Shown: piece after piece, positions 28,996 through 40,068 of the stretch | How positions within the stretch are numbered: position 1 is the stretch's first letter | Layout of the letters: every line of letters begins with the position of its first letter | NCBI GenBank assembly: GCA_023920165.1 | Contig: CP089275.1 | Span: forward strand, 4,712,001 to 4,776,000 | DNA from: Curvularia clavata | Taxonomy: Eukaryota | Reading direction: 5' to 3' | Length of the DNA: 64,000 nucleotides | Notes under the pieces: generated by a model | Database searches by the model: none | What the model saw: the letters and a program-made list of their open reading frames with translations, nothing else | What the model was told of the DNA's origin: nothing | Made by a program: the position numbers and the translations under genes

Positions 28996-30071
28996 TTAAT
29001 CCTGCACCTTGTCTAACAAGCTCTTCAGTATCTTCGCGGTGCTCTTCATGCCCTGAAGAGCATTTTCATCGGGACCCTGCCCAGGCGTCCATGTAGCGTG
29101 AGCAAAGTCAATCATCTTGACTTCCGCCAGCTTAGGCAGGACCTCTTCTTCATCCTCTTCCTCGTCCTCAGGATGGGCTGAACGCAGCTTCTGCTTCGTA
29201 TTGTTGTACTCTTCCACGTCGCCTTCATACACAAGAAGTATACTGGCACTGTACATTCTGCTCTCCTTACTCTCAAAAACCTCTTGTATATCCTTGACCT
29301 CACCCAAGAAGTACGCCAGAACCTCCCTTGCGCGGTCAAGTTCTGCTTCCGACTTGGCTCCAGGGTAGATGTACGACATGAAGCCCTCGTCCACATTCTC
29401 AGCGTTGAACTTGCGCCCGTACATTTTGTTGTACACCCAGTATCCATTCTCCTTGTCTACTTCGACGTACTCCTTCAGGTCGTCGGGGACGTCAGGTACA
29501 TCAGCGCCCTTGTAGGTGCGCATACCCGCTATCCGGAAGCCGAGGCTGCCACTTGTAGTCTCCTTACTGACGGCATCGAGGCGATCCCTCTTCTCCTGCT
29601 TCGCGGCATCGTCCCATAATCTTGCGCCGAGCTTCAAGTCCAAGACATTTGGTTTCTTGAATCCATGCGTGATGTTTTCCAGCACAATGTGCAGGTCTGT
29701 TTCAAGGTGCTTGCCATGGAGTCTCTCAATAGTGCCGTCGGCTGTTTGTATGGTACCGGTCTCGACACTTTCTGCGGCGGCTGTCTGGTCGGCGGAGAGC
29801 GACAGCCGGCCCATGAAGGTGGGGAGATGGCGGGCGAGATCTGGGTGCGCAGAGAGGGATTCATAGAAGGTGATTTCAGCGAGTGTACACGGCTTGACAA
29901 CTACGGCACCAGATTCGTCGCTGAGCACGCCTTCGCTGGAGTTGCTGGTTTAGTGTGGTAATCAAGGACATGGCTGGGCGGCAGACAGCTGCCTGCGGGT
30001 CACACGTACTGGCCTGCAGCAGCACTGCCGTATGCTTTCAACTTGGACGCGTCATATTTCTTGGTCGCCAT
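28996..30071 (-). CDS. IPK2: Inositol polyphosphate multikinase (Arg82/Ipk2-like); exons 30071-30010 and 29935-28996
   Basis: AAAGH-EG across the intron, PNVLDLKLG (PxxxDxKxG), TTSGSLGFRIAGM, SASILLVYEGD and MIDFAH. Confidence 0.88.
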
Positions 30072-30739
30072 AATGCCGGTATGTTTGGAATGCTTGGCTT
30101 GGAGATCTTGGGCTACGCGGGGTTGAGGCGGGAGTTGGAGTGCAAGCTGCCTGAGGTTGTTGTGGGGGGGTATTGAGGACCCCACTGTCGGGAGCTTGCA
30201 GGGCAACCGGCGAGTCAGGTGTCGCTGTCGTGACAGGCCATATGATTCGAATGCAATAGTACAACACCAACAGCGGGGTGGCCTGGGCACATCTCTATCC
30301 TGTCTCTTCCACAACTGGTAAAACCAGAAAATAAAGACCCAATCTACAAGTAGCCGTAGTTGTCACGGTTAATTATCATTCATTGTGTTTTACCATCCGT
30401 CCGTGAGGTGAGAGCTGGGAATGGGCGGCTGCATGTAGTCAGCATATTGGAAAGCACAAATGTGCAACAGTAGCGCTTCATCTTGGAGTGTCTATCTGAT
30501 GGCTAGAAGATAGTAGAATATGCAGAAGTGTGGCCTCGTATGTCTCTTCTATGTTTGTGCGACGTGTTTTCGGTTGTGCCAGTTACGCCTCCATTGGGTG
30601 AAGGCGCCGTGACATAATTGCGCTTGCCATTCTCATTTACTTGCAAACGCAGTAGCCCGCCGTCAACACCTATAAAATCTTACCGTAACTTCTCCCTCTT
30701 CCCTCAGTATCATTCGGGGCCTTTCAACTGACCGTCATC

Positions 30740-32706
30740 ATGGCATCTGCGGCGACGACACCCGTCGACGACGGGTCGCAAAAAGATAATACAAGCACTG
30801 CAACTCATGGCATTCCTCATTGTTATCCCGAAGGTGATAAAGGCCGTCGTCTAGTACTGAATGATGGCTCAGGGGCAGACGATACAAGCCCAGCAAATAA
30901 CAGTACCGTCCAAGATCACCCTGACGGTGACGAGATCCGCCGTCAAGTACGTTTTAATCCCTTGACCTTTAGGTGATATCTTTGGCACACTAACCCTTGT
31001 CCTAGGTAGAGTACTACTTTTCCGATGAGAACCTTCCTACCGACATGCATTTACTGCAGTGCTGCGGCGGACGCGAGAACCTTCCCGTCTCCATTAACCG
31101 CATATGCGGCTTCAAGAAGATGCGACAGTACAAGCCAAGATCCCTCGTCGTCGAAGCCCTCCGTCTAAGCACCTTCCTAGAGGTCTCCGAAGACGGCAAG
31201 ACTATCAAACGCAAGATCCCTCTGCGAGGGAAATGCGTCCTTGATCCAGACTTCTTTGATGACGAAGATATCGCCTACGACCCGCGCGTCAAGAAGCCAG
31301 CACAGTTTCCGGTACCGCTTATTCCGCAAAACAAGGCTGAGAGGAATACGCCAAAGCCTACAGGGTTCGAGAAAACGTACGCCGAGCCGCCCTTGACCGC
31401 CGGGGAAGCCGCAAAGGAGGAAGACATGTACGACCCCACGAAGCACTTTGTTGAGCGCATCGAATTGGCCATCCAGCGCTTCAAGCAAAAGCGTCGCATG
31501 CAGCCCAAGTATGCGCTTGCCTTTGAGAAGTTTGTGCGCCTTGGAGGTGTGGAGTCTGGTCCTCGCATGTACCAGGGCATCTCGAAGCAAGAAATGAAGG
31601 ACATGGATGCCGAAGAGCTTGCCAGGGCGCTTGCGACTTATCACGTACCCTGGGATCGCGCCGACGAGAGTCAGTGGGTGGTCGATTTTCAGGGTGTCAG
31701 CAAGGCCTTTCTGTAAGTCTGCTTCATCACGCGTCTCCAATGATACTAAGTGTGTAGCTCATCATACTACCCTACTCACTACGGTTATGCTCCGAGTACT
31801 GTGGACGACGCTTGTCAAGTCCTCCGATCATTCTTCAAATACCTCCAGTACCACAAAGTCTGCCCTGAGCATGACGATCAACTTGCTGCGGCACTCCAGA
31901 TCTGCGACATTGCTGAAGACCAGCTCCTCACAGTAGACGCTCTTGCCTCTGCCTTGGCGGGAGACTTCAGCAAGTCCGCCAGCCTCATCTTTGGTGGTGC
32001 TCAAGCTGGTCTCTATACTGTTAACAGATCTTGGATTGACGCTTGGATGGAGGAGTTGAAGGAGCAGGGTATGGAGTTTGAAGACACTGAATTTTCCGAA
32101 GAAGAAGCAAGGGTTAGGTTTGGTATCGCTATGGCAATCCTGGGATCGGAAGAGCAGTTCAAGCTGTACAAGTCGTCCAAACTGGAGGTCCTGGACAAGA
32201 AGTCTACCTTGCTCGAAGTGGTCGCGATCCACCTCCCGGACGATGACACTAAAGCAGCCTTCGCCGCACAAAGCAAACTTTACCAGCACAAACTAGACAT
32301 TGCACCTCTAGGCAAACTCATCTGCAAGACCTGGTACGTCGACCGTTGCGAGGTGTATGATCTTCCAAAGGATAAGTACCCTATCGGCAAGCCCTGTCCA
32401 ACTGATGACGGCGAAGAGTATGAGTTTTGGATCGAAGAAGGTATTGTTCGTAACTGCTTTATCGGTATGAAGATGGACGCGGATCTTCTGATACTGTCGG
32501 GCGACCTGGCTATCCTCGACAGAGTCAAGGAGGTCATGTGCAGCTTCTACACTTTCCTACCGAACGAGCTACTGATGGAGCGGAGGCCGAAAGAGGTGCG
32601 GTGGCTCAAGAAAGGCACGGGTCTTGATGAAGACGAAGACGAAGACGACAAGGCAAAAGAGGGCGCGGACAACGACCCGTCCGACGATGAGTTTGACGAT
32701 GAGTGA
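30740..32706 (+). CDS. arb1: Argonaute siRNA chaperone (ARC) subunit Arb1-like protein with an N-terminal La motif; exons 30740-30946, 31006-31712, 31758-32706
   Basis: La motif IRRQVEYYFSDENLPTD...GFKKMR...LEVSEDGKTIKRK, followed by Arb1-type motifs PTGFEKTYAEPP, FVERIELAIQRFKQKRR, WVVDF..VSKAFL, GMKM and SFYTFLPNEL. Confidence 0.82.
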
Positions 32707-34281
32707 GGGTTGGATCGGAGGGCAGGCTAAGGCGCTGTTTTTGTCGCAACGGGCCATGAAACAGCTGTCAAGGGCTGGAGACGGAACTTGGGGGAGGCTG
32801 TGTATGTAGAGTGGACATCAAACTTTGCCTCTGCAGGCATGCACCTCAGGACCCGATGCGAATAATGTGCTGTACATAGATGCGAAAATGCTTCTAAACA
32901 CTGTGCGGAGGGTTTTCTCGATTCCGGGCACACTGCGACTGATCACACCAACTTAGTACAGCTGCAATGCCAAAGTGAGACTTGGCTTCCTTGGTGGTTT
33001 TAGTGTTGCAAGTATAGTTGAATATAGTGCATTTTTTCCCAACAAAGCAAGTTACCTTCATCTCTTGTACCTAGTACACACACAAGGCGGCAAGGTGCAC
33101 CCTCCACGCTCAAGTTTGACCATGAGCCAGGCTGCGCCTCAGTGGTGCGCCCCAGTTTCACCCGTCGACCTCGTCCAGGTCCGCGACACCAAAGCCGAGA
33201 CTGAAACCGACAAACGGGTGCACGGCACGGGAGGACATTGACAAGTCTCGTCGGGCAGCCAAGAATTCCGTCCAATGTCTCCTCGCCTAGCCAAGGTACG
33301 CAGTCCCCCAGGCACCAGGTCCAAAGCGCGCAGATAGCGTAGCTGGGCGCGAGTTTATTTGTCGATGTCGTAAAGGCAAAAGGGCCCGCCACGTACGCAA
33401 ATGACGGCTATAGGCAATGCTCAGCAGGTCGTAGCCCTTGGCATTTGTAAACGACGAGACCTGGCACTGGGGCGCCAAGCGAGCGCTGTGTCGGAATCAC
33501 GATAGCGTGCGAGGTGTATGGCTGGCGGCCAGCAAAGCCACACGTTGCCGGTATTACAGTGCTTACCTCAGTCTGCAAGGCGCGGTGCCTGGCTGCTCGC
33601 CGTGGGTTGGATGGCGCGTTCATACTAGGTGTCCTGCATTGTACCCGTGGCAGGGGGAGGCGTCACTGTTGGTGGAGGAAATGAAGAAAAGCGTATTCTG
33701 GACAGAAGCAGGTTAGCCAGATGGGAGCCAAGCACCAAGGTCAGATCCGAGTTATCCGCCTGTCTCGCATGGGAAACGCGCACCAGGCATTTCCCAGCTG
33801 CGGCAGCGTGACGGACAGGTAGGCGGAGGGAAGCTTGGTGTCAAGGCACGCCAAGTGCTTGAGTCCTCTTAGCAAGCGGAGAAAGGGTCGACTGGTAAAA
33901 CCCAACCACAGCCCGCCGCGCGCTGAGCTTCTTAGCTTGCTCCCTTTGGTTTTGATTCCATTCACATGTTCCGCTCGGGTTGGCCTTTTAAATATAGTAT
34001 GCGGCCCTTTTGCTGTCTGATTGCCAGTCCGCCGCAACGACGACAACGACCCTAAGCTACGGTGCTGCTTTTCGCTGTGCGACATCCCCCATCGAATTCA
34101 CGCCACGACGGCGTCAAGCAAGAGCAAAAAAAAAACTACACTCGTCTCCAGAAAAGAAGGATAGGTTGGGCGTGGGGAGAAGAAAACCACTAACATTTCT
34201 CCCTCTTTTACCCCAGCACCGGCAGTTGTGCCTGGAACAAGAGGGCTGTGGAGACGCACACCGGGAGATTCCCTCGCTAGG

Positions 34282-35426
34282 ATGATGAGCGCCGCCGCCT
34301 TGCTAGTAGCTGCGCGGGCAACGTCCGACTTTCCCAAACGGGACCACGTTGGTACGTATTACTCCAACTACTTTTTCTCTTACCATAATATCTGTATCTT
34401 ACTAGACAATGTGCTATAGACACTAACGTTGCACCAGCCCAACGCATCCTCAACCCATACATTTACGACCCCTCGTGTGTCCTTGCCATCATCGGCACAG
34501 TCCTCGTCATCCTCCTCTCCATCTACTCCATCACGCAGTACCTGCGGCACCGATCATGGTTCTTCTGGGCCGCCATTATCGCCATCCTGATGCTTGATCT
34601 CGGCTTCATCTGTCGCATTGTATCGTCGTACGACGAAGGCAAAGAGTCCGCCTTCCTCGCCTCCTGGCTCATGATACTACTCGCTCCCAGCTTCCTCGCC
34701 GCTGCATGTTACATGTCATTTAGCCGCGTTATTTGGTTCAGTTGCCCAACAGAGGCCCTCAACTTCAAAACACTGTGGTGCTGGCCTGAATGGATCACGC
34801 CCTCGTTTGTCGCTTTTGACATGTTTTCTTTTCTCATCCAGCTCATCGGCGCGTCCCAGATCAGCAAGCACTATGACCATTCGCCCTCGGGCGACCGCGC
34901 TATCAGCATCTCGGAGCAGAAGGCGCTGCCGGGCCGTGTGATTTTGGTCCTGGGCTTGGTGCTTCAGATGCTGTGCTTCACCACTTTTTCCGTCGTCTCA
35001 ATTCGCTACTTTTACATGTCCCGCAAATGGCAGGCATACGACCTCGGAGACATGCATCTTTGGCGCAAGCTTTCTTACACTATCAATTTGTCTTCTATTC
35101 TCATTGCTCTGCGCGCCGTCTACCGCACCATGGAGATTCCCCATGACCGCAACTACGGCCTGCGCTACTTGCAGAGCCACGAGTGGTGCTTCTGGGCCTT
35201 CGACGCGGCGCCCATATTGTGTGTTTTGCTCATATTTGCCCTGTGGCATCCTGGCCGCTACCTTCCTCGCTCCTATACCGGCCTGCGGCTGGACAAGGTT
35301 CGGGCTGTCCAGGAGAAGGACGAAATTAGTTCCATGTGTAGCAAGAGTGTCTATGGCCAAGACACAGAGCTGAAAGAGTACAGGCCGGAGGACTTTCGCC
35401 ACGTGAGTGTTGCAGCAAAAGCATAG
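34282..35426 (+). CDS. RTA1-like 7-TM protein (lipid-translocating exporter family); exons 34282-34351 and 34438-35426
   Basis: NPYIYDPS, ILLAPSFLAAACY, FVAFDMFSFLIQLIG, LRAVYRTME and HEWCFWAFDA...HPG motifs. Confidence 0.88.
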
Positions 35427-35810: not shown

Positions 35811-36555
35811 TCATATATCAGACTGGTAATGGATTCTGAACTTCTTGTTCGCACGATCGGCCGATCGTGTCTGAAACTGCTCTCCGTTGATCTCAAAGGT
35901 GAGTGGCTCCTTCGGTGTCTCTCCCTCACCACAAGGGAGCGGAATTTGAAATCGGAAAATGGTGTGTTCTTTGGGTACGGCTGGATTCGTCAGATACTTA
36001 CCACTTACCTTTTGTGTCTACAGACTTACATTTAACAACGTTGTTTTTGGTTATAATTTCGAATGTGAATCTCGTGTCGCGCACAACTATACCTTCAAGG
36101 CCTACACGACTCACACACCGACTCCGCACCACGGTCACAAGCGCTCCGTGCATATCAGCAGTCGCCAGTATCTGGCCGCTTGCGTTTGGGGTGATGAGAA
36201 TGCCCTTCGAGGCATCATTCACGCCCAACACCTCCCTCATGTATCCGATCCAGAGGTTGTGTAGCCCCTCGTAGATGGAATACCTCTGTTGGTCCTTTGG
36301 GATCTCATTCAGACCTAGCGCGCGCTTCTTTGCTGCAGAGAGTGGGCGAGGCTTGTTCTTGCTACGCTTTCGGGAGGCTTCTTTACGGTCGTTGAGCGCG
36401 CGACGTCGGACAGCGCGCGCTGATGGTGTTGGCGATGTCGTGCGGATGTAAAGAGGTCGCTTTACAGCGCGTTCTTGGTAGTGCGATTCTGCGGTAGACG
36501 GAGAAAAGGCGCGGTGCAGCAGCGTTTGAGCAATGTGCGGGTTGGTGTCTGCCAT
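35811..36555 (-). CDS. POP4: RNase P/MRP subunit Pop4/Rpp29; exons 36555-36030 and 35980-35811
   Basis: LHNLWIGYMRE, ADMHGALVTVVRSRCVSRVGLEGIVVRDT, spliced VPKEHTIFRF, and RSADRANKKF. Confidence 0.9.
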
Positions 36556-36902
36556 TGCACCCAAATGTTCCACTGTAGCTGTTTCTGCGGATGCAGTGGC
36601 TTCGATGATGATGATCAGGTCAAAATTTCTTCGGGTGCCCTTGACGACAGATTACTAGGAGACTTGTATGAGCGACTCCAAGATTGCACACTGGGAAGCA
36701 AAAATTACACGGCGAATTCAGAACTTGACTCTGGGTGTCGCAACATGACGATGGGGTTCGCACAGCAGACGGCTGCGCTAGTGCGAAAGCGGGCTAGGCT
36801 TGTGGCTCGGCTATCGTTTTTCCGCCCTCACACATTCGAGGCTTCCCACGTCAAAATCGACCTCAGCTTCGACAACACCGCTAACCCGCAGCAACCGTCA
36901 AG

Positions 36903-38871: not shown

Positions 38872-40068
38872 ATGGTGGACAAACTAGACATCGAGGGTCT
38901 CCTCAAGGAGTCCAAGGCCGAGTACAGACGTCTAGGGAAAAGCGGGCTCAGAGTATCTGTGCCTATCCTGGGTGCTATGAGCATAGGAAGCTCAAAATGG
39001 CAGCCGTGGGTGATTGAAGAAGCCGAGGCACTTCCGCTGTTGAAAGCTGCGTACGACCGTGGTCTAACGACTTGGGATACTGGTTAGCTTGCTAGATGCA
39101 AATCAAAGCTTGGGATTTTTTTTTTGCTAACGCTGTCTCAGCCAACGTCTACTCTAATGGCGTGTCGGAAGAAATCATTGGCAAAGCAATCAAACAATAC
39201 AGCCTTCCACGCGAGAAGCTCGTCATTCTCACAAAATGCTTTGGCTACGTAGGCGAAGACCCTGGCCTTCGCTCCATCAATTATACAAAAGAGCTCGCTC
39301 AGCTCAAAGACTACGTCAACCAAGCCGGACTCTCGCGCCAGGCGATTTTCAACGCTGTCAATGCATCGCTCAAGCGCCTCGATACGGATTACATTGATCT
39401 CCTGCAAATCCACCGGTTTGATCCCAACACCCCCTTGGAGGAGACGATGGAAGCACTGCATGATTTGGTCAAGAGCGGAAAAGTACGGTATATTGGTGCG
39501 AGCTCCATGTGGGCAGTGCAGTTTGCGCAGATGCAGTTTGTAGCGGAGAAGAATGGGTGGACCAAGTTTGTTAGCATGCAGAATCACTATAATCTGCTGT
39601 ATCGGGAGGAGGAGCGCGAGATGAACCGGTTTTGCAATGATACGGGAGTTGGGCTTATCCCGGTAAGTCGCTGTTTACAATTTGCTTGAAGTCGTTTGTG
39701 ACAGGTTGCTGAACAAGTCTTAGTGGGCGCCTCTCTGTCGCGGCCATCTTGCTCGTCCGCTCTCAGCCTTTGGCTCAACGACGCGTTCTGAAGGCGAGCA
39801 GAAAGCCGCCAATCAAACTACAGGTAGCAGGGAGGTGGACAGGAAGATCATCGAGCGAGTGCAGGAGCTGGCGAAGAAGCATGACTGGAAAATGAGCCAT
39901 GTTGCACTGGCGTGGATCAACAAGCGTGTGTCGAGCCCCATTATTGGGTTCTCGAGCGTGGAGAGGATGGACGAGGCGCTAGAGGCCAGAGGCAAGGAGT
40001 TGAGTGAGGACGAGGAGAAGTATCTCGAGGAGCTGTATGAGCCTGTGCGCATTTCGGGGCACTCGTAG
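38872..40068 (+). CDS. Aldo/keto reductase (aryl-alcohol dehydrogenase-like); exons 38872-39082, 39142-39662, 39724-40068
   Basis: [52 protein letters not shown] and [16 protein letters not shown]. Confidence 0.93.

What the first reader, a model, noticed from the sequence alone, without database searches (positions are those of the whole stretch)
30740..32706. La-motif::Arb1 fusion: an RNA 3'-end reader built into the Argonaute chaperone
Seen: a complete La motif (IRRQVEYYFSDENLPTDMHL...GFKKMRQY...LEVSEDGKTIKRKIPL) runs in the same exon and frame (31006-31712) into Arb1-type sequence, so the fusion is not a gene-model artefact, and no RRM follows the La motif. By-eye alignment to human La shows the UUU-3'OH-binding residues Q20, Y23, Y24, D33 and F55 retained and F35 replaced by His. 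Established: Arb1 is a subunit of the S. pombe ARC complex that loads duplex siRNA onto Ago1 and, to my knowledge, lacks a La motif; La motifs recognise RNA 3'-OH ends. Inference: a lineage-specific RNAi loading factor that selects or excludes small RNAs by their 3' end (siRNA overhangs, or Pol III/tRNA-derived RNAs). I am not aware of a functional description of this architecture.
Basis: partly seen in the sequence, partly recalled or inferred. Interest (0 to 1): 0.72.

Follow-up and report, generated by a model that had tools for sequence, protein, structure and literature searches.

The report
La-motif–Arb1 fusion protein of Dothideomycetes
This fungal gene joins an RNA-end-binding La motif to Arb1, a helper protein of the RNA-silencing enzyme Argonaute; the fusion is kept across one whole class of fungi, but nobody seems to have studied what it does.

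Summary
A three-exon, 620-codon gene (30740-32706, + strand) encodes a La motif (Pfam PF05383, 59.8 bits against a cut-off of 37.1). About 40 residues later, in the same exon, a full-length Arb1 domain begins (PF09692, profile positions 3-401 of 403). No RRM follows. One correction: the first residues of the La motif (…IRRQ) lie in exon 1, across a 59-nt intron. Spliced RNA contigs confirm both introns.

The architecture is not peculiar to this genome. All 84 Arb1 hits have it, and so do 51 of 140 further cluster representatives. Every named fungal carrier is a Dothideomycete. Arb1 proteins from other classes lack it and form one clade.

The La motif is the best-conserved part of the protein. 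Its 3'-end pocket is nearly fixed in 100 sequences (D 100, Y 100, Q 99, F 96), and human F35 is usually His (83). Orthologue models superpose on RNA-bound La motifs at Z 10-11.5.

Databases annotate the architecture automatically. I found no paper on it. Function is inferred: probably RNA 3'-end capture coupled to Argonaute loading.

The parts
30740..30946 (+). Exon 1: start codon, poorly conserved N-terminal tail (residues 1-64) and the first five La-motif residues, ending in Q69 (30944-30946)
   Evidence: The tail has a mean commonest-residue share of 0.19. Transcript contigs start at 30605-30698.
30947..31005 (+). Intron 1 (59 nt, GTACGT...CTAAC...TAG), lying inside the La motif
   Evidence: The joint 30946->31006 is seen in contigs of runs X5 and X8. 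It is read through in three public orthologue gene models.
31006..31712 (+). Exon 2: the rest of the La motif, the conserved pre-Arb1 segment and the first third of the Arb1 domain, all in one frame
   Evidence: La at residues 1-53 and Arb1 at residues 111-235 of this exon's translation.
30932..31224 (+). La motif (residues 65-142, interrupted by intron 1). Pocket residues: Q69, Y72 (31012), Y73 (31015), D82 (31042-31044), H84 (31048-31050), F105 (31111-31113)
   Evidence: Pfam. PDB sequence hits. Conservation. Orthologue models superpose on solved La motifs at Z 10-11.5.
31225..31335 (+). Segment between the La motif and the Pfam Arb1 match (residues 143-179). It has no regular secondary structure in the orthologue models and is too short for an RRM
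   Evidence: commonest-residue share 0.58; no helices or strands, pLDDT 67-90. Arb1-only proteins already align to the family profile from about position 117-148, so this is ancestral Arb1 N-terminal sequence.
31713..31757 (+). Intron 2 (45 nt, GTAAGT...TAG), phase 2
   Evidence: The joint 31712->31758 is seen in run X8.
31336..32586 (+). Arb1 domain (PF09692 profile 3-401 of 403, interrupted by intron 2): a helical part followed by a beta-rich C-terminal part
   Evidence: Orthologue models have pLDDT mostly above 90. No solved relative by sequence or by Foldseek. Only weak fold leads, Z 5-7.
31758..32706 (+). Exon 3: the rest of Arb1, the acidic C-terminal tail (32587-32703) and the stop codon (32704-32706)
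   Evidence: The orthologue consensus ends in EFDDE. RNA contigs run on to 32867-32986.

Best explanation
This is the Dothideomycete form of Arb1, the Argonaute-binding subunit of the fission-yeast ARC siRNA-loading complex. An ancestor of the class grafted a La motif of the genuine-La type directly onto the N-terminus of the ancestral Arb1 protein.

Shown: one gene, one spliced mRNA, a complete La motif and a complete Arb1 domain. The fusion is kept across the class. The La motif is its most constrained part, and its 3'-end pocket is intact.

Inferred mechanism: the Arb1 domain docks on an Argonaute. The La motif grips the free 2'/3'-OH end of an RNA through the invariant Asp and Tyr, with the terminal base stacking on His84 in place of Phe. 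An RNA 3' end would thus be held at, or shielded within, the Argonaute loading complex. The most likely RNA is the 3' overhang of duplex siRNA or an untrimmed precursor, while Arb1 delays passenger-strand release. This would resemble the La-motif domain of HEN1 gripping a small-RNA 3' end, and genuine La shielding 3' ends from exonucleases. Which RNA is bound, and whether the effect is positive or negative, remains open.
For: Architecture and transcript:
- establish the gene, its domains and its splicing.

Class-wide retention:
- 84 of 85 hits carry PF09692 plus PF05383.
- 51 of 140 further 50%-identity cluster representatives carry La at E<=1e-3, 49 of them above Pfam's cut-off.
- Of 20 La+Arb1 representatives looked up, 10 had names. 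Eight were Dothideomycete names and two were plant-assembly labels. Six carrier lineages were checked in the taxonomy.

Single origin is plausible:
- In the Arb1-only-columns tree of 110 rows, 47 of 53 La-less rows form one clade (support 93). The La label needs 6 changes, against a shuffled mean of 37.
- The 6 nested La-less rows start at Arb1 residue 1-17 or in the middle of the La motif, so they look like truncated models.

Constraint:
- The La motif has a mean commonest-residue share of 0.80, with 34 of 78 columns at >=90%. Arb1 has 0.61, with 65 of 407.
- Pocket residues in 100 sequences: D 100, Y 100, Q 99, F 96; the Y23 position is Y47/F46/H6/W1; the F35 position is H83/Y12/F4/C1.
- The roles of these residues in human La come from passages of PMC2430598.

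Fold:
- The La motif of the P0002 model has pLDDT 94-97.
- It superposes on RNA-bound human La (2von_B, Z 10.8, rmsd 1.8 A over 82 residues), on LARP7 (Z 11.3) and on the LARP1 La motif (Z 10.8).

Origin:
- 51% identity over 76 residues to a Scedosporium La+RRM protein.
- Profile scores rank genuine La, LARP6 and LARP7 above LARP1 and LARP4.

Link of Arb1 to Argonaute:
- ARC biology is described in passages of PMC5985592 and PMC13136243.
- Arb1 and Arb2 are 'mostly conserved in... ascomycetes that have retained RNAi' (PMC9963178 passage).
- An A. terreus Argonaute gene model is said to carry an Arb1 domain (PMC13194176 passage).

Precedents:
- HEN1's La-motif domain binds the small-RNA 3' end (PMC8473176 passage).
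- Tetrahymena Mlp1 is a La protein that works without RRM1 (PMC9705548 passages).
- LARP1 La motifs have been crystallised alone with RNA (PDB titles).
Against:
- In human La the La motif needs RRM1 to clamp U-2. Here no RRM exists, so affinity and specificity may be low unless Arb1 or Argonaute supplies the second wall.
- Arb1's Argonaute binding is documented only in S. pombe, whose Arb1 is distant from this one.
- The A. terreus Ago-Arb1 statement rests on SMART predictions for gene models and could be a merged model.
- The structure models are of orthologues (P0001, P0002; 62-65% identical to the window protein), not of the window protein. I could not inspect coordinates, so whether the La motif packs on Arb1 is unknown.
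- X1 and X3 contigs keep both introns, and the X5 contig keeps intron 2. Unspliced RNA, or DNA, is therefore also present in those runs.
Confidence: 0.5

Rival explanations
1. Gatekeeper. The La motif binds UUU-3'OH ends of Pol III products (pre-tRNA trailers, tRNA fragments) next to Argonaute and keeps them out of it. The fusion would be a negative filter rather than a loader.
For: The motif is of the genuine-La type. It retains the Gln that reads U-2 in human La (99 of 100; role). La is reported to prevent tRNA fragments from entering RISC in human cells (Hasler 2016, seen only as cited and summarised in a passage of PMC10191329).
Against: U-2 recognition in human La also needs RRM1 (I140 and N139), which is absent here. 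The Phe-to-His change is at the terminal-base stacking site. Nothing links Arb1 to exclusion of RNAs. No RNA data were examined.
Confidence: 0.2
2. Argonaute-independent RNA-binding protein. In Pezizomycotina the Arb1 domain has a role other than Argonaute loading, and the La motif directs it to some other RNA (for example Pol III transcripts or mRNA 3' ends).
For: Arb1 function is known from S. pombe only. The Arb1 domain has no solved relative. Its C-terminal beta part weakly resembles OB folds (Z 5-7.1), so it could itself bind nucleic acid.
Against: Arb1 and Arb2 presence is reported to follow retention of RNAi in ascomycetes (PMC9963178 passage). An Argonaute gene model with an Arb1 domain is reported in A. 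terreus. The OB-like Z values are within the range the tool calls common arrangements.
Confidence: 0.12
3. The La motif has been re-used as a protein-binding or purely structural module and no longer binds RNA ends.
For: It has no RRM partner. The canonical Phe35 is replaced. The Y23 position is Phe or His in about half of the sequences.
Against: The residues that contact the ribose hydroxyls and the phosphate in human La (D33, Y24) are invariant in 100 of 100 sequences, and Q20 and F55 are kept in 99 and 96. Such a pattern is not expected if only the fold mattered. All replacements at the Y23 position, and all but one at the F35 position (a single Cys), are aromatic or planar.
Confidence: 0.08
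4. Gene-model artefact: two neighbouring genes wrongly read as one.
For: None. It was considered only because fusions in eukaryotic annotations are often artefacts.
Against: La and Arb1 lie in the same exon and frame. One X5 contig covers 30664-32362 with intron 1 removed. All 84 Arb1-bearing hits share the architecture.
Confidence: 0.01

Closest known systems
S. pombe Arb1 (ARC complex: Ago1-Arb1-Arb2; Pfam PF09692)
   Same: The Arb1 domain matches the family model almost end to end (profile 3-401 of 403). By family membership it is expected to bind Argonaute.
   Different: It carries an N-terminal La motif. Arb1 proteins outside Dothideomycetes have none: 52 of 53 La-less full-length rows give no La signal, and the one exception is a truncated La motif. 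That S. pombe Arb1 itself has none is recalled, not tested. Argonaute binding, slicer inhibition and an Arb2 partner were not tested here.
Genuine La (human SSB, yeast Lhp1/Sla1)
   Same: The La motif has the same fold (Z 10.4-11.1 to human La). It has the same pocket residues Q, Y, D and F. It is 51% identical to a fungal La+RRM protein.
   Different: It has no RRM1, so no La module. Phe35 is His. The motif is followed by an Arb1 domain instead.
Tetrahymena Mlp1 (La motif + DUF3223, no RRM1)
   Same: A La motif works with a non-RRM partner domain, and its Q/Y residues are needed for pre-tRNA binding (PMC9705548 passages). This is the nearest precedent for 'La motif without RRM'.
   Different: The partner domain is different (DUF3223 rather than Arb1), the lineage is different, and Mlp1 acts in tRNA processing, not RNAi.
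LARP1 La motif, and the solo-La-motif LARP1 forms of fungi and plants
   Same: An isolated La motif can hold RNA 3' ends (PDB entries 7soo-7sow, titles). Solo-La-motif proteins exist in Dikarya (PMC7928011 passages).
   Different: The fusion's motif scores closer to genuine La, LARP6 and LARP7 than to LARP1 or S. pombe Slr1 (77, 68 and 61 bits against 42 and 28). It has no DM15 region.
Arabidopsis HEN1 La-motif-containing domain (LCD)
   Same: A La motif built into a small-RNA pathway protein, said to bind the 3' end of the small RNA (PMC8473176 passage). It is the closest functional analogy to the proposed mechanism.
   Different: The structural match is only weak (3htx_A, Z 5.5). HEN1 is a methyltransferase with dsRBDs, not an Argonaute partner. 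No homology is claimed.
Aspergillus terreus AGO3 gene model carrying an Arb1 domain
   Same: An Arb1 domain joined to another RNAi component in Pezizomycotina (PMC13194176 passages). It supports an Arb1-Argonaute link outside fission yeast.
   Different: The partner is different (Argonaute itself rather than a La motif). The claim is based on SMART prediction for a predicted protein and was not verified here.

Membership tests
La-motif superfamily (La and LARPs) | La motif matching PF05383 above the curated cut-off | tested here: met
   59.8 bits against a cut-off of 37.1, even without the first 4-5 residues that lie in exon 1. PDB La, LARP6 and LARP7 chains are hit at E 4.7e-10 to 2e-3.
La-motif superfamily (La and LARPs) | Winged-helix La-motif fold | tested here: met
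   Tested on orthologue models only (P0001, P0002). Z 10-11.5 with rmsd 1.8-2.7 A over 82-87 residues to human La, LARP7 and LARP1. pLDDT is 94-97.
La-motif superfamily (La and LARPs) | Conserved 3'-end pocket (human Q20, Y23, Y24, D33, F35, F55) | tested here: met
   Window protein: Q69, Y72, Y73, D82, H84, F105. Five are identical and F35 is His. Human numbering is recalled.
La-motif superfamily (La and LARPs) | La module: an RRM directly after the La motif | tested here: not met
   No RRM family at E<=0.1. Only about 37 residues separate the La motif from Arb1. That stretch has no helices or strands in either model.
Genuine La (SSB/Lhp1/Sla1) | La motif + RRM1 binding the UUU-3'OH of Pol III transcripts | tested here: not met
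   RRM1 is absent. RNA binding is not testable with these tools. I therefore do not file it as a genuine La, although its motif is of that type.
Arb1 family (PF09692) | Full-length match to the Arb1 model | tested here: met
   Profile 3-135 in exon 2 (159.4 bits) and 137-401 in exon 3 (243.6 bits), against a cut-off of 25. It nests among Arb1 proteins in the tree.
Arb1 family (PF09692) | Binds Argonaute and inhibits slicing or passenger release (ARC function) | not testable with these tools
Arb1 family (PF09692) | Argonaute, Dicer and Arb2 present in the same genome | not testable with these tools
   No whole genome is held for this window.
HEN1-type La-motif-containing domain | Structural similarity to the HEN1 LCD | tested here: inconclusive
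   3htx_A gives Z 5.5, rmsd 2.9 A over 94 residues, which is within the range of common arrangements.

The most novel reading that the evidence does not exclude
La-Arb1 is a further, undescribed La-related protein family, confined to Dothideomycetes. In it the Arb1 domain (or the bound Argonaute) replaces RRM1 as the second wall of the 3'-end pocket. The protein would act as a built-in 3'-end sensor of the Argonaute loading complex. It would hold or measure the 3' overhang of duplex siRNA, and so control passenger-strand release, 3' trimming or tailing, and the choice of which RNAs become guides.
Probability: 0.25. Interest if true: 0.75.

Novelty: new variant of a known kind. Interest (0 to 1): 0.5.

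Why it matters
La proteins and Argonaute loading have been linked only in trans, for example by the report that La keeps tRNA fragments out of human RISC (seen as cited). Here evolution has tied a genuine-La-type 3'-end reader covalently to an Argonaute cofactor, and has kept its RNA-contacting residues almost unchanged across a whole fungal class that includes many plant pathogens. That gives a direct handle on two questions. How does an Argonaute loading complex treat the 3' ends of small RNAs? Can a La motif work with a non-RRM partner? It would also add a class-specific family to the La-related protein catalogue. If the function proves unrelated to Argonaute, it would instead show that 'Arb1' outside fission yeast is mis-named.

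Tried and rejected
- Own-genome searches for Arb1 and La families failed because no genome is held. Paralogues, Argonaute, Dicer, Arb2 and the organism's own La could not be checked.
- The exon-3 search in the 'near' length band returned 76 hits. Most were roughly 200-350-aa ORF pieces from metagenome contigs, which say nothing about architecture. Only Xylona heveae (487 aa, Arb1 only) was useful.
- The La-region-only search returned 73 fusion proteins and one spinach LARP6B out of 74 hits. Origin rests on score ranking and one pairwise comparison.
- Foldseek of the P0001 model against the PDB gave 0 matches at E<=0.001. For the Arb1 part, only weak VIA leads appeared: an integrase core-binding-like helical region at Z 6-7.1 and an OB-like beta region at Z 5-7.1. 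I treat these as leads, not folds. Both models exceed 400 residues, so a domain match could have been missed.
- I looked for a hidden La motif in La-less Arb1 proteins. None was found in 52 of 53; the exception is a truncated model.
- I considered a Zn-site in Arb1 (a His/Cys cluster conserved among the fusion proteins). I dropped it because the cysteines do not reach 90% across 110 family rows.
- Earlier scan notes gave nothing for this genome or for the fusion. The five notes that mention 'Arb1' concern the unrelated ABC-F ATPase Arb1.
- One paper search failed on term syntax and I did not resend it.
- I did not lay the runs holding only a small share of the stretch (X9-X22), and I draw nothing from them.
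I repeated the fold with P0002, which has an intact motif.
Full report
**1. What is there**

Reading the DNA gives a three-exon gene on the + strand.
- Exon 1 is 30740-30946, exon 2 is 31006-31712 and exon 3 is 31758-32706.
- The two short introns are typical of filamentous fungi: 59 nt (GTACGT…CTAAC…TAG) and 45 nt (GTAAGT…TAG).
- The spliced CDS is 1863 nt, or 620 codons.

Pfam finds two domains in exon 2. The La domain PF05383 sits at residues 1-53 of the exon-2 translation (59.8 bits, curated cut-off 37.1). In the same exon and frame, Arb1 PF09692 sits at residues 111-235 (159.4 bits, profile 3-135). Exon 3 continues Arb1 to profile position 401 of 403 (243.6 bits). No RRM or other family appears at E<=0.1.

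One detail needs correcting. The motif string it quoted (IRRQ|VEYYFS…) crosses intron 1, and the Gln equivalent to human Q20 is the last codon of exon 1.

**2. Is it transcribed as one message?**

One search listed 22 public runs holding the stretch or part of it. I laid four of them, from two studies.
- A contig in each of X5 and X8 joins 30946 to 31006.
- A contig in X8 joins 31712 to 31758. All joints have GT..AG ends.
- One X5 contig covers 30664-32362, running from exon 1 through the La motif well into Arb1.
- Contigs of X1 and X3 retain both introns, and the X5 contig retains intron 2. Unspliced RNA or DNA is therefore also present in those runs.
- These are assembled contigs, so they show presence and splicing, not expression level.

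**3. How widespread is it?**

Hits from this window's sequence:
- A search with exon 2 for longer proteins gave 85 hits. Of these, 84 carry both PF09692 and PF05383. The remaining one is a Scedosporium La+RRM protein.
- The best hit is 74% identical (Bipolaris maydis), so the window organism is a Pleosporales-like fungus whose own protein is not in that collection.
- Where names are given, all are Dothideomycetes (Pleosporales, Botryosphaeriales, Phyllosticta, Cercospora and others). Most of these assignments are from my own knowledge. Taxawa, Eremomyces, Bathelium and Coniosporium were checked.

Hits from a family profile:
- A profile of 78 orthologues (A1) searched against 1.84 billion cluster representatives found 471 proteins at E<=1e-30.
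- I scanned 140 of the best 150 with Pfam; the other 10 were already known to me. Of the 140, 51 carry La at E<=1e-3, and 49 of those are above the cut-off. The rest carry Arb1 alone, and many of them are fragments.

Name look-ups (20 La+Arb1 and 10 Arb1-only representatives asked):
- Ten of the La+Arb1 representatives had names: Trichodelitschia, Aulographum, Cladosporium, Dothistroma, Baudoinia, Polychaeton and two Oleoguttula, all Dothideomycetes. Trichodelitschia and Aulographum were checked.
- The other two named ones are labelled as the trees Carpinus and Quercus. These are probably fungal contigs in plant assemblies.
- Eight of the 10 Arb1-only representatives had names (taxonomy): Thelocarpon, Sarcosagium, Agyrium (Lecanoromycetes), Phylliscum (Lichinomycetes), Cirrosporium (Xylobotryomycetes), Ophidiomyces, Ascosphaera and Pseudogymnoascus.
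- Xylona heveae also has Arb1 only.

Tree (FastTree, midpoint root, 110 full-length rows, Arb1 columns only):
- 47 of the 53 La-less rows form one clade (support 93).
- The La label needs 6 changes, against 37 for shuffled labels.
- The six La-less rows nested among La rows either start at Arb1 residue 1-17 or, in one case, start in the middle of the La motif. They look like truncated gene models.
- The other 52 La-less proteins show no trace of a La motif (E>0.8). In the same test a genuine La scored 93.5 bits.

The simplest reading is one fusion at or near the base of Dothideomycetes. The polarity (gain rather than loss) rests on the recalled absence of a La motif in S. pombe Arb1. Arb1-only proteins align to the fusion profile from about position 117-148, directly after the La motif. 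The motif was therefore added onto the ancestral Arb1 N-terminus, not joined by a new linker.

**4. Is the La motif functional-looking?**

Conservation across the window protein and 84 orthologues:

| Region | Mean commonest-residue share | Columns at >=90% | Median identity to window protein |
|---|---|---|---|
| La motif (residues 65-142) | 0.80 | 34 of 78 | 77% |
| Arb1 domain | 0.61 | 65 of 407 | 50% |
| N-terminal tail | 0.19 | 2 of 64 | 14% |

The motif is the most conserved region of the protein.

Pocket residues across 100 class-wide sequences (A2):

| Human La position | Counts in 100 sequences |
|---|---|
| D33 | D 100 |
| Y24 | Y 100 |
| Q20 | Q 99, gap 1 |
| F55 | F 96, W 2, Y 1, L 1 |
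| Y23 | Y 47, F 46, H 6, W 1 |
| F35 | H 83, Y 12, F 4, C 1 |

Passages of Kotik-Kogan et al. 2008 (PMC2430598) give the roles of these residues in human La.
- D33 binds the 2' and 3' hydroxyls of the last nucleotide.
- Y24 binds its phosphate.
- The last base stacks on F35 without base-specific contacts.
- Q20 and Y23 read the penultimate U, together with RRM1.

So the end-recognising residues are fixed, and the stacking platform is a family-specific His.

Structure models:
- A model of orthologue P0002 (intact motif; pLDDT 86.3, pTM 0.78) has its La motif at pLDDT 94-97.
- That motif superposes on RNA-bound human La (2von_B, Z 10.8, rmsd 1.8 A over 82 residues), LARP7 (Z 11.3), T. brucei La (Z 11.5) and the LARP1 La motif (Z 10.8).
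That public gene model reads through intron 1, and the insert has pLDDT below 50.
- The roughly 40-50 residues after the motif have no helices or strands in either model. There is no hidden RRM.

**5. Where did the motif come from?**

By profile score against solved chains, the order is as follows: Dictyostelium La 77 bits, LARP6 68, LARP7 61, T. brucei La 57, human La and LARP1 about 42, S. pombe Slr1 and LARP4 26-28. The window motif is 51% identical over 76 residues to the La motif of a Scedosporium La+RRM protein. This points to the genuine-La lineage rather than the solo LARP1 type. It is not a phylogeny, because the search meant to collect fungal La paralogues returned none.

**6. The Arb1 part**

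No solved structure matches it by sequence or by Foldseek. The models are confident, with pLDDT mostly above 90. They show a helical region followed by a beta-rich region. VIA-align gives only middling matches:
- the helical part to integrase core-binding domains (Z 6-7.1);
- the beta part to OB folds such as SSB, PriB and RPA (Z 5-7.1).

The tool itself warns that such values are common, so I report them only as leads.

**7. Mechanism**

What is established elsewhere (all seen as passages):
- In S. pombe, Arb1 and Arb2 join Ago1 in the ARC complex, which holds duplex siRNA. They are needed for loading and they hinder passenger-strand release, and purified Arb1 inhibits slicing (PMC5985592; PMC13136243; both cite Buker 2007, which I did not read).
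- Arb1 and Arb2 are reported as mostly conserved in ascomycetes that kept RNAi (PMC9963178).
- An A. terreus Argonaute gene model is said to carry an Arb1 domain (PMC13194176). I did not verify this.
- La motifs hold RNA 3' ends.
- The La-motif domain of plant HEN1 binds the 3' end of its small-RNA substrate (PMC8473176).
- A La protein without RRM1 exists and still uses its La-motif residues (Tetrahymena Mlp1; PMC9705548).

My best inference (confidence about 0.5) is that the Arb1 domain docks on Argonaute, while the La motif grips a free 3'-OH end and holds or shields it in the loading complex. The bound end is most likely the overhang of duplex siRNA or of a precursor.

The rivals:
- a gatekeeper that sequesters UUU-3'OH Pol III fragments (0.2; compare La and RISC in PMC10191329);
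- an Argonaute-independent RNA-binding role (0.12);
- a La motif that no longer binds RNA (0.08);
- an annotation artefact (0.01, refuted).

None of the functional steps could be tested.

**8. Novelty**

The architecture is visible in databases. Sources name these proteins 'HTH La-type RNA-binding domain-containing protein' or 'Arb1-domain-containing protein'. The ESM Atlas holds an 80-member cluster in which 100% of members have Arb1 and 93% have La.

In print I found nothing.
- No paper in the searchable library holds 'Arb1' together with 'La domain' (0 papers).
- None of the listed hits holds Arb1 together with 'La motif', 'La-related' or 'HTH La-type'.
- The 135-species survey of La and LARPs (PMC7928011) never uses the words Argonaute or Dothideomycetes (term look-up only).
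- Subscription journals and supplements were not searched.

I rate it a new variant of a known kind: a real, class-wide, strongly constrained and functionally undescribed fusion. Its mechanism is plausible but unproven. Interest 0.5.

Noticed in passing
Orthologue proteins P0001 (Bipolaris maydis), P0036 (Pyrenophora seminiperda), P0031 (Plenodomus tracheiphilus); equivalent of window 30947-31005: These three public gene models lack the contiguous Q-x-E-aromatic-Y-F signature. P0001 visibly reads through intron 1, putting about 19 extra residues into the La motif between IRRQ and VEYYF. In the P0001 model that insert has pLDDT below 50. These look like annotation errors that hide the intact motif.
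   Followed up: partly
Proteins P0200 ('Carpinus fangiana') and P0176 ('Quercus suber'): La+Arb1 proteins are filed under tree species names. They cluster with Dothideomycete sequences in the Arb1 tree, so they are probably fungal contigs in plant assemblies.
   Followed up: no
Orthologue models: P0002 residues 421-545 and P0001 residues 197-350 (window roughly 32100-32500 and 31390-31900): The beta-rich C-terminal part of the Arb1 domain weakly resembles OB folds (Z 5-7.1). The helical part weakly resembles the core-binding domain of tyrosine recombinases (Z 6-7.1). Arb1 has no solved structure, so folding each sub-domain alone would be needed to judge this.
   Followed up: partly
window 32587-32703: There is an acidic C-terminal tail (DEDEDEDD…DDEFDDE). 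The orthologue consensus also ends in EFDDE, so the extreme C-terminus may be a conserved short motif.
   Followed up: no
window 28996-29949 (-), 34389-35426 (+), 35998-36651 (-), 39096-39689 (+): Neighbouring ORFs match inositol polyphosphate kinase (divergently oriented upstream of the gene), an RTA1-like protein, RNase P/MRP subunit p29 and an aldo/keto reductase. No RNAi gene is seen nearby.
   Followed up: partly
window 30947-31005 and 31713-31757, runs X1, X3, X5: Contigs of two runs keep both introns, and one otherwise spliced contig keeps intron 2. Retaining intron 2 would stop translation at 31714-31716, after the La motif and the first third of Arb1. Contigs cannot tell whether this is pre-mRNA, DNA carry-over or regulated intron retention.
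   Followed up: no
Paper PMC13194176 (A. terreus), not in the window: An Aspergillus terreus Argonaute gene model (AtAGO3) is reported to carry an Arb1 domain. If real, this is a second and independent Arb1 fusion in Pezizomycotina, and a Rosetta-stone link between Arb1 and Argonaute. It could also be a merged gene model.
   Followed up: no
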